Shown in pieces: positions 36,001-40,442 of a stretch of DNA of 64,000 nucleotides. The DNA lies in assembly GCA_035221665.1 (NCBI GenBank), contig CM069144.1:39680001-39744000 (forward strand). Reading direction: 5' to 3'. The position numbers are program-made. The stretch is from Okamejei kenojei (Eukaryota). The stretch's first letter is position 1. The number at the start of each line of letters is the position of its first letter.

Positions 36001-39000
36001 GTGGACTACTACATTGCACAAACTCTCAAAATGAGTAACATGAATAAATCATTTGACAACCATAAATGTTTTCAAAAATGTACTTTAATGCTTTAAAAAA
36101 AAAATTCATTGTCCTCTCCTCCACACCATCAAAACCCTTCTGTGAGGTACAACTGTCTCCTCACTACAATGAAGAAACCCACCCAGAAGAATGATCTTTG
36201 CCTCAGCACTATAATGCATATGGTCTCTTCTAAAACCTTAGTAAGGAACTGACCTGTGCATGCATCTTGAAATTGAGGGGTTGGACAACACTTAACTGGG
36301 GAATGATTATATGGAGTCTTCATGGAGTTCTTGTGAATGCAGCCCAAAACAGGTGGCAAACCTCATCCAATGCCAAAATCTTGAATGAGACCGATAGTCA
36401 ACAAATACTGTAAGGGGAAGTTGAAAATAACTTTTCCTACCCTGGGAAATGTCCATGACTGTCCACCTTATCTATGCCACTCCAGGGAAAGACCCAGCCT
36501 CTCTAACCCTTCAGAACTAGTAACATTCTCATACTATTTTTGCATTCTTTACGGAAGCATCCTTTTAGCAGGGTGACCAGAACTGTACACCAATTGTGGC
36601 CTTACCAACATCATGTACAGCTATAACTTACCATCTCCTGCACACAATACTGAACAATGAAGGCAAGCATGTGAAATATCATTACCACAGTCCACATGTG
36701 GTGACACCTTCATGGAACTATGTACCTAAATCCCTAGGTCTGTTTTACGACTTCTGAGGGGCACTACATTTCTGCCCTGGTTTATCCTACCAAAATGCAA
36801 TACCTCACATTTATCAAACTCAGTCTGTCAATCCTCAGCCCATTGGCCCAGTTGATCAAGATGGTGTTATGATTGTAGATATCATTCATCATTTACTTTA
36901 TCACCAATATTAATGCCATCCTACATTCACATCCAAATCATGAATATAAACAAACAGTGGACCCTGCACTGATCCCAAAGGTACTCCACTTGGTTGTGTC
37001 TGAACATCTCTCATGACCCTTTCCTCCCTTCAAGCCAATTTTGTATTCAATTGGCTAGCTCACCTGGATCCCATGTGATCCAACCTTCCAAACCAATGTA
37101 CATAATCCATGCAGAACATAGTCAAAGGCCATGGTAAAGTCAATGTAGGTAATATTTCTCAATCTTCGTGATGATCTCTTCAAAACCTGTGTACTTCAAG
37201 TCTCCTGTCTGCGTATGGTTACGGAGGGAATGCTGGAAAGCTGCTCAAAGCACGAGGCAACCAAGCAATAGACCGATTCATCATTATATGATATCTGCAT
37301 CCATGGTCTTTTTTAGCAAAAGTTGTGACCAAGGACCCATGGAGTTTGGACTCTCCACCCACTGTTCTGCACAACCAGAGACGTCAAGGCTGAAACAGTT
37401 TCAGATTCAATTAGTCTGATCATGACATTTACCTATATGCAAGAACGTCCTTCAAGCTATTGGAACTCAAATTAGGAGATGAGCCACCCAGCACACTGAA
37501 ATTTGTAACAATTTTAAAAAATTCAAGTCAGGACATATGTTTGGAAGTGACTCGAGGTCACCCTGGCCTGAATGTAAATGAACAGGGGATTTATGTGGTC
37601 TGCCCATTCAGAATCACGCATCACTATGAAAATTTCAATGAGCATTGAAAACCCGAGTCACAAAAGCCTTAAATCACTAAAAAAAGGACAGTAGACTGAT
37701 GAAAGTAAAAATGCTCCATTAACTTCTGGAATTCTTTGGGGTTAGCAAAGAAAGTGACAGCAATTGTAGCAGATTTCAGAAATTAGGTTTTTATTTTAAA
37801 TAAAGGATTCAGAAATGTTGATAAAGATTGTCCTAGAAACAGAAAATAGTAGGCCATTTGGCCCTTCGAGCCAGCACGGCCATTCAATATGATCATGGCT
37901 GATCGTCCAAAATCAGTACCTCGTTCCTGCTTTCTCCCCATATCCTGTGATTTTGTTAGCCCGAAGAGCTATATTTGACTCTCATGAAAACATCCAGTGA
38001 ATTGGCCTCCACTGCCTTCAAACCTCTGTAATAAGTAACAATGCTAACATGCAAGGCTGCAGATAATTAGGAAGGAATGTGTTGGCTTTCATTGCAAGAG
38101 AATGAGTACAAATGAAAAATGCAATCATACAGGACATGGGCAAGAACACATCTGATTTAGGTACAACTATCTTTGGGTACAAATCGGGATCTTACTAAAA
38201 GGGGACAAATTTGATCTCGAAAGAGAGCAGGAAATATCTACGTTTTCTTTATAATTAGTAGGAAGAATCTTAAGTTTGGGAGGAGAGGTGACTAAGTTTG
38301 AGGGCTCAATAGGATAGACATGAGAAATATTTGAGGGGCTAGGTCATCTGAAACTTGGAGGGGGGCTGGGGAAGAAATTCAATATAAAAGGCTGAAATTT
38401 GAAATCTTAGGATGCAATTATACTGTCATGGGTGAGAAATTTACCCCAAGAAAGCCAAGAGTTTCAGTAACATGAATTCAATATAGATTGAGAGATTTTG
38501 GATAGCAGAGGAATCAAAGAAATTATTTAAGGGTCAGATTATAATAATGAAAGACCATTTGACCCTTGAAATCTCTGCCATTCAATATAATGCCCAAGCC
38601 CTCATCTCACAGTACAGCTGGATGCCTTGTCTGAAATGCAAGAACATATTACTGTATTCTGAGCTGAACACCACAGCCTCTTGGAATCGTCCAAATCATA
38701 AATCCATGATAAAACATCAACTCCGTCCTCCGTCCACTCCACGTTTCCTGGCAATTCACAATCTCAAATAGGCAAGACTGTAACCCCAAGTGTCTTAGTT
38801 GGGCCATTGTGACCCTTACTGACACACTGTTCACTCAATTATGGAGCCACGGGACAACGATCAATTTAGTAAAGCAAGGTGAGTGCGTGTAGAAATATGC
38901 CTTGTACGGCAATGTGTTGCACATTACACTTGTTGCACTTCCAAAATTCATGGAGCTCAAGTAAGTAATCACAATGAACATAGCAGCAGGGATTGTACGG

Positions 39001-40442
39001 CTCCATTCTAATCCTGGGAAAGTTCAACAGCACAACTGTGCAATTACAACTCATGTCCATTCAGAGGTTGATTTTAAAAGAGTTAAAAAAATCTAACAGA
39101 AAAAGACAGTGTTGGAGTAACTCAGGCAAGGCAGCATCTCTGCAGAATATGGATCGTTAACATTTTGGGTCAGGACCCTTCAGTTTTTGTAAACCAGTAT
39201 CTGAAGTATCATGCATCTCCACAAACTACCAGATTAGCTTGAGAATTAAACAATGCCACAAAACCAAACCACCTAAAAGCGAACACAGAGCGAACAGTTA
39301 AACCATTACCAAAAAAATCATCAGGTTTACAACCTGGCAAGCCTTCGAAAGGTCAATGGGGACATTTGTAGCAATCTTGGAAGTCCAGCATGTCAGGAAG
39401 GTGCAGAGGAAAAATAGGCAAGAGCAATAACGCTGATCACACAAGACTCCGGACGCTGCAATCAAACAAAACTGGGTAACACCAGTGACAACGCTCAGCA
39501 TCTGTAGGAATATGGGAATATATAAAGAATATGGGAAGACAGGTGGGAGGTGAACAGGGAACAAGGGCAGTTGTGAATGTCACAGGAAGTCCTTGTTTGT
39601 CACCTACAGATCTGCTCTAGTTGACGAGCTCCTAGTTGGAACGGGTTGGGGAAGCGTGTAAAGGATGCACACACACAGTCAGTGAATTTGAGACACCTGT
39701 TAAGAACCAGCATCGGCTGAGGGCTGAACGACCGGCTGCCCTCAGCGTTTCCGGAGGGCAGGGCAGCGAGAGGAGCGTAACGTGAGCGCTTGGCGGCGCC
39801 GGGCCCAGGCTTCATTACCCGCCCGGAGCACAGCAGAATCCCTCAACGTTTTGACCACGACCCCTCTGCTCGCGTCCCCGCCGAGATAACGGGGCCGCCC
39901 GTCGCCCTCCAGGGTGAAAGTCTGCGACTAACTGTGGCTAACGAACCTAACAAAGATGCAGCGGGAAAATTCTGGAGGCGTCGGCTCCTTGTCCCTGTGG
40001 AGGGCGAGATATACCGTGAGGCGCTCACGCCACCCGGCAGGCATCCCTCACCACATGCCGCCGCCGAGCTCCCGGCTCGGGACTGATGGCGCCTGTCGCT
40101 CCGCCCTGCTATTTATAGACTGCGACCAAGCGAAAGCGCTACCAACTGACAATCAGCCCCAACGCCACTGCATGGGGGGGGGGAGAAGCAATGAGACACC
40201 GAGAAGCAGATTTTAACGTTAATTTCCCCTCCGTTACAAGGTATTTCAATCCGCGGCATAAATCAAATACGATTTCAGACCTGTTTTTGTTATTGGTCTG
40301 CGTAGGTTAGTGTGAAGGCCTGTTTTTGCTGAGTTTGCCTCTCACGCTGCCGCGACGTCCCCCCGGCCCCCTGATCGGCGGGCCGGGCGCCGGCTGACGT
40401 CATTGAGGGGCGGGCGGAGCGTGGGGGCAAAAAAATAAAATT

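What the first reader, a model, noticed from the sequence alone, without database searches (positions are those of the whole stretch)
36065..40120. Unrecognised TATA-driven, multi-exon minus-strand transcript between ABCF3 and the PHF gene
Seen: the minus strand reads TATAAATA (40117-40110), then ~30 nt later CCATCAGTC (Inr-like), then GGCATGTG|GTGAGG. Acceptors with pyrimidine tracts follow at 39696, 39501, 38630, 37495, 37366 and 36407, and there is an ATTAAA at 36089-36084. The predicted exons fall in the repeat-free islands (37180-37700, 38580-39060, 39240-40100), while CR1/SINE debris occupies the long predicted introns. Inference: a compact gene sharing a bidirectional promoter with the PHF gene. 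Its architecture (short exons, weak ORFs, structured introns) resembles a small-RNA host lncRNA. I recognise no homologue. The donors at 39603 (GTGACA) and 37186 (GTTTTG) are weak.
Basis: partly seen in the sequence, partly recalled or inferred. Interest (0 to 1): 0.8.

Follow-up and report, generated by a model that had tools for sequence, protein, structure and literature searches.

The report
Possible divergent non-coding promoter, skate spacer
The stretch is the spacer between the skate ABCF3 and PHF13-like genes; it holds a believable backward-facing TATA promoter that may give an ordinary divergent non-coding RNA, but the proposed six-exon gene rests on chance-level splice motifs.

Summary
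The flanking genes are confirmed. ABCF3 lies on the + strand, with its stop at 35387-35389. A PHD finger protein 13-like gene lies on the + strand, with its first ATG at 40666. The finding is therefore their 4.6-kb intergenic spacer in a skate genome.

Only the promoter exceeds chance. TATAAATA and a perfect Inr (TCAGTCC, A+1 at 40084, 33 nt downstream) sit inside the PHF13-like CpG island, where about 0.03 TATA-like octamers are expected.

The splice model does not exceed chance:
The donors rank 4, 17 and 89 of 249 GTs.
- 4-kb background tiles hold about 20 equally good acceptors.
- The best acceptor is the antisense of a 28S rRNA-like fragment.

I found no known small RNA, no excess RNA structure and no protein homology.

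Most likely this is an ordinary divergent upstream-antisense non-coding promoter. Expression and conservation could not be tested here. Interest is low.

The parts
40110..40117 (-). TATA box (TATAAATA) inside the CpG island
   Evidence: There are 4 copies in the window against 1.11 expected. Only 0.028 TATAWAWR are expected within the island.
40078..40089 (-). Initiator. TCAGTCC (40086-40080) fits YYANWYY with A+1 at 40084, 33 nt after the first T of the TATA box. This is the inferred minus-strand start site.
   Evidence: The start site is inferred from motifs, not measured.
40046..40054 (-). Only good 5' splice (U1-type) site near the start: GTG|GTGAGG, donor G at 40051, 34 nt from the inferred start.
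   Evidence: Score 4.54, rank 4 of 249 GTs. The next minus-strand donor scoring >=2 is at 37432.
39601..41000 (.). CpG island shared with the PHF13-like promoter
   Evidence: GC 0.53-0.82, CpG o/e 0.66-1.21.
40666..40699 (+). First coding exon of PHF13-like (MTSPISSQECA...), with a strong donor at 40700. A CRE (TGACGTCA) and a GC box lie at about 40397-40417, upstream.
   Evidence: The orthologue N-termini (P0124, P0126) match. Donor score 7.56. The motif names are recalled.
37790..37795 (-). First minus-strand poly(A) hexamer (AATAAA) downstream of the inferred start, 2.3 kb away. A candidate 3' end.
   Evidence: the only minus-strand AWTAAA hits within 36065-40120 are here and at 36084-36089.
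36084..36089 (-). It is tail-to-tail with the ABCF3 AATAAA at 36043-36048 (+).
   Evidence: There are 128 AWTAAA in the window, about 1 per kb per strand, so this one is not distinctive.
36213..36415 (+). 28S rRNA-like fragment.
   Evidence: LSU_rRNA_eukarya, 37.1 and 29.1 bits, E 2e-6 and 7e-5, model positions 104-358. Below the gathering score of 50.
36501..36987 (-). Interspersed repeat, probably derived from a LINE reverse transcriptase
   Evidence: copies at 7430-7820, 62965-63301 and 23884-23996. The match to the RT motif is weak (E 0.28). Pfam did not confirm it.
37841..38019 (.). SINE-like repeat with at least 3 further copies in the window
   Evidence: 75-89% identity to 34671-34853, 24323-24495 and 60883-61056.
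39094..39228 (.). Short interspersed repeat with many copies in the window
   Evidence: 13 matches, 135 of 179 nt covered.
35225..35389 (+). Last coding exon and stop codon of ABCF3. The 3'UTR runs into the left edge of the finding.
   Evidence: 96% identity to residues 683-736 of Leucoraja erinacea ABCF3; poly(A) hexamers on the + strand at 35573 and 36043.

Best explanation
The interval 36065-40120 is the intergenic spacer between the 3' end of ABCF3 and the CpG-island promoter of a PHF13-like gene, both on the + strand, in a skate genome.

At its right edge, inside that CpG island, a canonical TATA box and a correctly spaced initiator face away from PHF13-like. The most likely function is a core promoter for divergent (upstream-antisense) RNA polymerase II transcription. 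In that reading TBP/TFIID binds at 40117-40110 and initiation occurs near 40084.

The non-coding transcript would then run leftwards. It meets a U1-type 5' splice site after 34 nt and no poly(A) hexamer for 2.3 kb. It could therefore elongate, perhaps be spliced once to one of several equally mediocre acceptors, and end near AATAAA at 37795-37790 or ATTAAA at 36089-36084.

Shown: the motifs, their spacing, the CpG island and the neighbouring genes. Inferred: that the promoter fires, and everything about the transcript body.
For: - TATA and Inr geometry, and their rarity in the GC-rich island.
- The CpG island spans 39601-41000.
- The PHF13-like first coding exon at 40666 is confirmed by orthologue N-termini from Rhinoraja longicauda and Pristis pectinata. 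The two starts would therefore be well under 1 kb apart.
- No + strand Inr lies in the slot after the TATA element, which favours the minus orientation.
- The donor GTG|GTGAGG lies at +34 (score 4.54, rank 4 of 249). No minus-strand AWTAAA lies between 40084 and 37795. In the U1/PAS account of promoter directionality, this layout favours elongation (PMC11230626, introduction passage seen).
- Long upstream antisense transcripts are reported to be enriched at large-CpG-island promoters of transcriptional regulators (PMC3882496, abstract seen). PHF13-like is a PHD-finger gene.
- No coding signal. 0 of 25 minus-strand ORFs >=40 aa reached Pfam's cut-offs; the only matches, in 2 ORFs, had E 0.15-0.2. 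The 93-aa ORF matched only a translated tandem repeat. 0 of 10 ATG-ORFs are in the 15-billion-protein collection.
Against: - No expression data and no other vertebrate genome could be consulted. Neither the start site nor conservation is shown.
- TATA+Inr pairs also occur at 3 other places in the window that are not obvious promoters: 16267 (+), 17461 (-) and 6177 (-).
- TATA boxes are atypical of CpG-island promoters (general knowledge, recalled).
- The inferred start is 300-500 nt from the likely PHF13-like start, further than the 100-200 nt typical of upstream antisense starts (recalled).
- A CCAAT box at 40296-40292 lies about 210 nt upstream, not at the usual distance (the usual distance is recalled).
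- The absence of a poly(A) hexamer over 2.3 kb is only weakly unusual, given about 1 per kb per strand.
- The splice score uses consensus frequencies recalled from memory. It separates the 9 real ABCF3 junctions from background only modestly.
Confidence: 0.45

Rival explanations
1. Nothing stable is made. The TATA-like octamer and the Inr are a chance pair, or a protein-binding element of the PHF13-like upstream promoter. The rest is neutral intergenic DNA with transposon debris.
For: - 3 other TATA+Inr pairs occur in the window.
- Splice and poly(A) motifs are at background density.
- No excess RNA structure.
- No RNA-family or protein match.
Against: Only 0.028 TATAWAWR are expected in the island, and the Inr is in the right slot and on the right strand. 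Divergent transcription is common at CpG-island promoters (PMC3882496 abstract; PMC11230626 abstract in the listing).
Confidence: 0.33
2. One reading: a compact gene of seven or so exons running from 40084 to about 36065, with the listed junctions, serving as host for intronic small RNAs.
For: The motifs exist. The predicted exons avoid the repeats that can be detected within the window.
Against: - Acceptor ranks are 21, 10, 30, 142, 26 and 2 of 246. Donor ranks are 4, 17 and 89 of 249. Scores go down to -7.2 and -3.62.
- The best acceptor is antisense 28S-like sequence.
- Rfam gave 0 matches at gathering score. The best snoRNA and miRNA matches were at E 0.4-4.3.
- The single C/D-like hit lies in a repeat.
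- The inferred start ATCAGTCC is not a pyrimidine-tract (TOP) start of the kind usual for snoRNA host genes (recalled).
Confidence: 0.04
3. The TATA element serves the + strand as an upstream alternative promoter or first exon of PHF13-like.
For: Orthologues have alternative first exons (P0123, P0125). TATTTATA read on the + strand resembles functional TATA variants (recalled). Weak + strand donors lie at 40241 (score 1.13) and 40306 (score 2.45).
Against: No + strand YYANWYY has its A+1 at 40138-40144; the first is at 40221. The + strand reading does not fit TATAWAWR.
Confidence: 0.08
4. A small RNA gene with a type-3 RNA polymerase III promoter. The TATA box would lie about 30 nt upstream, and transcription would end at TTTT (39969-39966), giving an RNA of about 118 nt.
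For: A TATA box lies at about -30, and a run of four T lies at +116 to +119.
Against: No Rfam family matches, even at E <= 10 with lax filters. The fold of 40087-39960 has z = +1.07, and 170 of 200 shuffles fold at least as well. By eye I saw no PSE-like element at -47 to -66; the PSE consensus is recalled and I ran no formal scan.
Confidence: 0.03
5. A lineage-specific small protein gene, for example the 67-aa hydrophobic, Cys-rich ORF at 39501-39301 that begins exactly at the reader's third acceptor.
For: An ATG directly follows acceptor 39501, and the ORF is 67 aa long.
Against: No Pfam hit. Among 1.84 billion representatives the only match is a spurious one to a translated tandem repeat. 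The exact sequence is absent from the collection. ORFs of this size are frequent on both strands here: 25 ATG-ORFs >=35 aa in 4 kb.
Confidence: 0.03

Closest known systems
Long upstream antisense transcripts and divergent lncRNA/mRNA pairs at CpG-island promoters (Lepoivre et al. 2013, PMC3882496; abstract seen)
   Same: Head-to-head with a coding gene for a chromatin or transcription regulator. Both starts lie in one large CpG island, less than 1 kb apart. No coding potential.
   Different: No transcript has been observed here. The candidate start is TATA-driven, which is unusual for this class (recalled). The organism is a skate, whereas the class was defined in mouse.
PROMPTs / upstream antisense RNAs limited by the U1-PAS axis (described in the introduction of PMC11230626; Almada et al. 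2013 seen only in its reference list)
   Same: Antisense initiation upstream of a coding promoter.
   Different: Typical examples terminate early at nearby poly(A) signals. Here a 5' splice site lies at +34 and the first AWTAAA at +2.3 kb. If transcribed, it would more likely elongate.
Small-RNA host genes (SNHG/GAS5-type snoRNA hosts, miRNA hosts)
   Same: Weak ORFs and a proposed multi-exon, non-coding layout.
   Different: No intronic snoRNA or miRNA was detected. No TOP-type start. The exon chain is not supported.

Membership tests
Divergent (bidirectional-promoter) lncRNA | Opposite-strand start site within 1 kb of a coding gene's start | tested here: inconclusive
   The motif-inferred start at 40084 is 582 nt from the PHF13-like ATG at 40666. 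Neither start site has been measured.
Divergent (bidirectional-promoter) lncRNA | Both starts lie in one CpG island or promoter region | tested here: met
   GC 0.53-0.82 and CpG o/e 0.66-1.21 over 39601-41000.
Divergent (bidirectional-promoter) lncRNA | A transcript exists on the antisense strand | not testable with these tools
   No RNA-seq, CAGE or vertebrate transcript collection was available. An exact look-up of 10 ORFs found 0, which is only weak evidence.
Divergent (bidirectional-promoter) lncRNA | No conserved protein-coding potential | tested here: met
   0 of 25 minus-strand ORFs reached Pfam's cut-offs. The only representative hit is spurious. The joined spliced ORF was not searched.
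Small-RNA host gene | Introns carry snoRNA or miRNA genes | tested here: not met
   Rfam gave 0 matches at gathering score. The best sub-threshold matches were snoR80 at 23 bits against a cut-off of 45, and mir-2056 at 20 bits against 100. One C/D-like hit lies inside a repeat. Novel families cannot be excluded.
Small-RNA host gene | Supported multi-exon structure with usable splice sites | tested here: not met
   Site ranks and scores. Background density. No donor scoring >=2 between 40051 and 37432.
Type-3 RNA polymerase III gene (U6/7SK/RMRP/RPPH1-like) | Encodes a recognisable structured small RNA ending at a T-run | tested here: not met
   TTTT lies at +116 to +119, but there is no Rfam match and the fold z is +1.07.
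Type-3 RNA polymerase III gene (U6/7SK/RMRP/RPPH1-like) | Proximal sequence element about 55 nt upstream | not tested
   Looked at by eye only, against a recalled consensus. No scan was run.
Mirtron | A short GT...AG intron that folds as a stable pre-miRNA hairpin | tested here: not met
   The 57-nt GT...AG piece 40051-39995 has MFE -22.9 and z -1.10; 28 of 200 shuffles fold at least as well.

The most novel reading that the evidence does not exclude
A skate-lineage, TATA-driven divergent lncRNA paired with PHF13-like that really is a small-RNA host. Its first kilobase contains an unclassified 60-nt hairpin (39545-39606; z -2.35 on the minus strand, -3.52 on the plus strand) that could be a new miRNA precursor. 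The TATA box would give the pair tissue-specific rather than housekeeping control.
Probability: 0.04. Interest if true: 0.35.

Novelty: new member of a known kind. Interest (0 to 1): 0.12.

Why it matters
If the promoter fires, this is one more head-to-head lncRNA/mRNA pair at the promoter of a chromatin-reader gene, in a cartilaginous fish. That would be mildly useful for asking how old divergent lncRNA partners of PHF13/PHF23-type genes are. It would not change any current view.

The practical lesson concerns method. In AT-rich vertebrate spacer DNA, a chain of AG acceptors with pyrimidine tracts, plus an ATTAAA, can always be assembled by eye. Here only the TATA+Inr pair in a GC-rich island carries information.

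Tried and rejected
- **Known RNA families.** Rfam on the whole window at gathering score gave 0 matches. Permissive scans of 35800-40700, 39550-40350 and 35900-36800 gave only sub-threshold noise plus the 28S-like fragment.
- **Telomerase, RNase P, MRP or 7SK-type gene behind the TATA box.** Rejected on the same scans and on folding.
- **Mirtron reading of the 57-nt GT...AG piece.** Rejected.
- **Coding gene.**
  - Pfam on 320 ORFs >=60 aa, taken from the window outside the 40.7-49.8 kb repeat (of 374 in all), sent.
  - Pfam on 150 + strand ORFs of 28-59 aa in 17.7-36.2 kb.
  - Pfam on 25 minus-strand ORFs >=40 aa in the finding. Nothing in the finding reached a cut-off.
  - The 93-aa ORF against 1.84 billion representatives gave 1 hit, a translated tandem repeat with 8 stretches, which I judged spurious.
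  - Exact look-up of 10 ATG-ORFs: 0 found.
- **Spliced model.** I searched it ORF by ORF (exon by exon) only. I left out the joined step, so the ORF of the joined model is untested.
- **Identifying PHF13-like.** A first search with the 280-aa exon restricted to longer proteins found nothing. The near-length search identified it.
- **Reverse-transcriptase identity of the repeat at 36.5-37.0 kb.** Pfam did not confirm it. It rests on in-window copies and a weak motif match.
- **Bacterial-type promoter and terminator scan.** Run once. Not informative for a vertebrate.
- **Not usable or not tried.** No vertebrate genome or transcriptome could be compared, so conservation and expression stay unchecked. 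I looked at no supplementary files.
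Full report
**Observation.** Reading 35800-40400 on the minus strand confirms every motif at the stated coordinates:
- TATAAATA at 40117-40110 and CCATCAGTC at 40089-40081.
- ATG at 40056-40054, followed by GTG|GTGAGG with the donor G at 40051.
- AG acceptors whose first exon bases are 39696, 39501, 38630, 37495, 37366 and 36407.
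- Weak donors at 39603 and 37186.
- ATTAAA at 36089-36084.

The window contains no N.

**Surroundings.** ABC-transporter domains lie on the + strand at 4319-4666, 17158-17733, 25904-26035 and 30584-30745.
- A search with the first of these returned ABCF3 from many vertebrates. The best hit was Leucoraja erinacea at 97% identity.
- Mapping that protein back gives 13 exon matches. The last coding exon is 35225-35386, with the stop at 35387-35389.
- + strand poly(A) hexamers follow at 35573 and 36043-36048. The ABCF3 3'UTR therefore probably ends at about 36065, the left edge of the finding.

To the right, the 280-aa ORF at 58002-58841 matches 'PHD finger protein 13-like' of Amblyraja radiata (89%), Rhinoraja longicauda, Pristis pectinata and sharks.
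- The N-termini of two orthologues (MTSPISSQVCAE..., MTSQIGSQVCAE...) match the window's ATG at 40666.
- That exon ends in a strong donor at 40700, score 7.56.
- Upstream of it lie TGACGTCA and a GC box at about 40397-40417, and a 90-nt G run.

The finding is thus the 4.6-kb spacer between two + strand genes in a skate genome. Its right end lies in the PHF13-like CpG island (39601-41000; GC 0.53-0.82, CpG o/e 0.66-1.21).

**The promoter.**
- TATAAATA occurs 4 times in the window against 1.11 expected.
- TCAGTCC fits YYANWYY with A+1 at 40084, 33 nt after the first T of the TATA box.
- Across the window, 4 of 16 TATAWAWR sites have such an Inr 28-34 nt downstream. The other three are at 16267 (+), 17461 (-) and 6177 (-). 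The pair alone is therefore not proof.
- Inside the GC-rich island, however, only 0.028 TATAWAWR are expected, and only 2.3% of positions have an Inr in the slot.
- On the + strand, no Inr lies in the corresponding slot.

I therefore take the minus-strand core promoter as the one part of the observation that exceeds chance.

**The exon chain.** I scored splice sites with simple weight matrices built from recalled vertebrate consensus frequencies.
The acceptors score 1.89, 3.57, 0.82, -7.2, 1.23 and 6.63.
- Nine real ABCF3 junctions, placed by length constraints only, have medians of 4.7 for donors and 4.7 for acceptors. Their ranges are -1.5 to 8.6 and -3.2 to 6.2.
- Forty-four 4-kb background tiles hold on average 20.4 acceptors >=0.8 and 17.5 donors >=0.95. 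The finding's minus strand holds 30 and 16.
Among its 249 GTs, the donors rank 4, 17 and 89.
- No minus-strand donor scoring >=2 exists between 40051 and 37432, so internal exons in that 2.6 kb lack usable donors.
- The best acceptor (36407) is the reverse complement of a 28S rRNA-like fragment: 36213-36415 on the + strand, 37 bits, E 2e-6, model positions 104-358.
- AWTAAA occurs 128 times in the window, so the ATTAAA is not distinctive.

**Repeats.** In a sensitive in-window comparison, the three 'islands' are unique: 0 of 521, 0 of 481 and 0 of 861 nt matched. The gaps match other parts of the window: 388 of 1115, 191 of 879 and 135 of 179 nt.
- 37841-38019 is a SINE-like unit, and 39094-39228 is a short multi-copy repeat.
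- 36501-36987 is a repeat with translated similarity to 62965-63092 and 7440-7741.
- Its reverse-transcriptase origin is suggested by a weak motif match (E 0.28) and by the MEFN..KCEVLHFG stretch of ORF 62689-63144. Pfam did not confirm it.

But unique sequence is not evidence for exons.

**Small RNAs and structure.**
- Rfam gave 0 matches at gathering score for the whole window. Permissive scans gave only noise: snoR80 23 bits, mir-2056 20 bits, snoU82P 12 bits.
- My C/D-box scan found one hit, 36892-36820, inside the repeat.
- Folding 40087-39960 gives z +1.07, and 40087-39697 gives z -0.28. The 57-nt GT...AG piece gives z -1.10.
- Sliding 120-nt windows on the minus strand have mean z -0.06; 3 of 66 fall below -2 and none below -3. 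The plus strand has 4 of 66 below -2 and 2 below -3.
- The one notable element is a roughly 60-nt hairpin at 39545-39606 (z -3.52 on the + strand, -2.35 on the - strand). It remains unexplained.

**Coding potential.**
- The unspliced ATG at 40056 is followed by TGG TGA.
- 0 of 25 minus-strand ORFs >=40 aa reached Pfam's cut-offs; the only matches, in 2 ORFs, had E 0.15-0.2.
- The 93-aa ORF 39298-39579 hit one protein among 1.84 billion representatives. That protein is a translated tandem repeat matched in 8 stretches, which I regard as spurious.
- 0 of 10 ATG-ORFs are present in the 15-billion-protein collection.
- I searched the spliced model exon by exon and left out the joined step.

**Interpretation.** The best reading is an ordinary divergent (upstream-antisense) Pol II promoter in the PHF13-like CpG island.
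- The 5' splice site at +34 and the absence of a minus-strand AWTAAA until 37795-37790 fit a transcript that can elongate, under the U1/PAS view of directionality (PMC11230626, introduction passage).
- Long upstream antisense transcripts are reported at large-CpG-island promoters of transcriptional regulators (PMC3882496, abstract).
- Against this reading: no expression or conservation data could be reached, TATA boxes are unusual in CpG islands (recalled), and similar motif pairs occur elsewhere in the window.

I put 0.45 on this reading and 0.33 on 'no stable transcript'. The + strand alternative-exon reading gets 0.08.

**Verdict.** If real, it is a new member of a known kind. Interest is low (0.12).

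Noticed in passing
window 36213-36415 (+), probably extending to about 36440: A decayed fragment resembling the 5' domain of eukaryotic 28S rRNA (Rfam LSU_rRNA_eukarya positions 104-358, 37 bits, below the gathering score of 50). It sits in intergenic DNA next to an interspersed repeat. It could be an rRNA pseudogene piece or part of a transposon.
   Followed up: partly
window 39545-39606: A roughly 60-nt hairpin with a stem of about 22 bp. It is more stable than shuffles on both strands (z -3.52 on +, -2.35 on -). No Rfam match.
   Followed up: partly
window 40445-40534: A 90-nt run of G (95% matches) directly upstream of the PHF13-like first coding exon. It is either a real homopolymer in the 5' region or an assembly or polishing artefact.
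   Followed up: no
window 40805-48809: About 8 kb of degenerate C/T-rich minisatellite (units such as CCCCTCCCCGTCTCTCTGCC; GC 0.70-0.75, strong negative GC and AT skew). It fills the first intron of PHF13-like. The opposite strand is G/A-rich.
   Followed up: partly
window 15079-16035 (+) and 32464-33285 (+): Two Tc1/mariner-type transposase remnants (HTH_Tnp_Tc3_2 and DDE_3) inside ABCF3 introns. The second has a 274-aa open frame. LINE endonuclease and RT pieces lie at 826-1233 (-), 6752-7249 (-) and 17854-18168 (+).
   Followed up: partly
window 49429-49563 (+): Weak match (51% over 45 aa) to the alternative N-terminal exon of Amblyraja radiata PHF13-like isoform X2. This suggests a second promoter or first exon downstream of the C/T-rich repeat.
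   Followed up: no
protein P0106, mapped to window 2768-34165, 54297-54365 and 58023-58241: An unnamed 928-aa database protein fuses ABCF3 to a PHF13-type C-terminus. This suggests the two genes are neighbours on one strand, or are read through, in another vertebrate too.
   Followed up: partly
window 38500-38590: An inverted duplication of a SINE-tail-like motif forms a 14-bp hairpin (z -2.61 on the + strand). This is what Rfam weakly called snoR80 (23 bits, E 1.6).
   Followed up: partly
window 30566-30601 (+) against P0003 residues 591-607: The Leucoraja erinacea ABCF3 model (736 aa, against about 710 aa in other species) seems to include residues that align with intron sequence, containing a stop, in this window. 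It may be an over-extended exon in that annotation.
   Followed up: no
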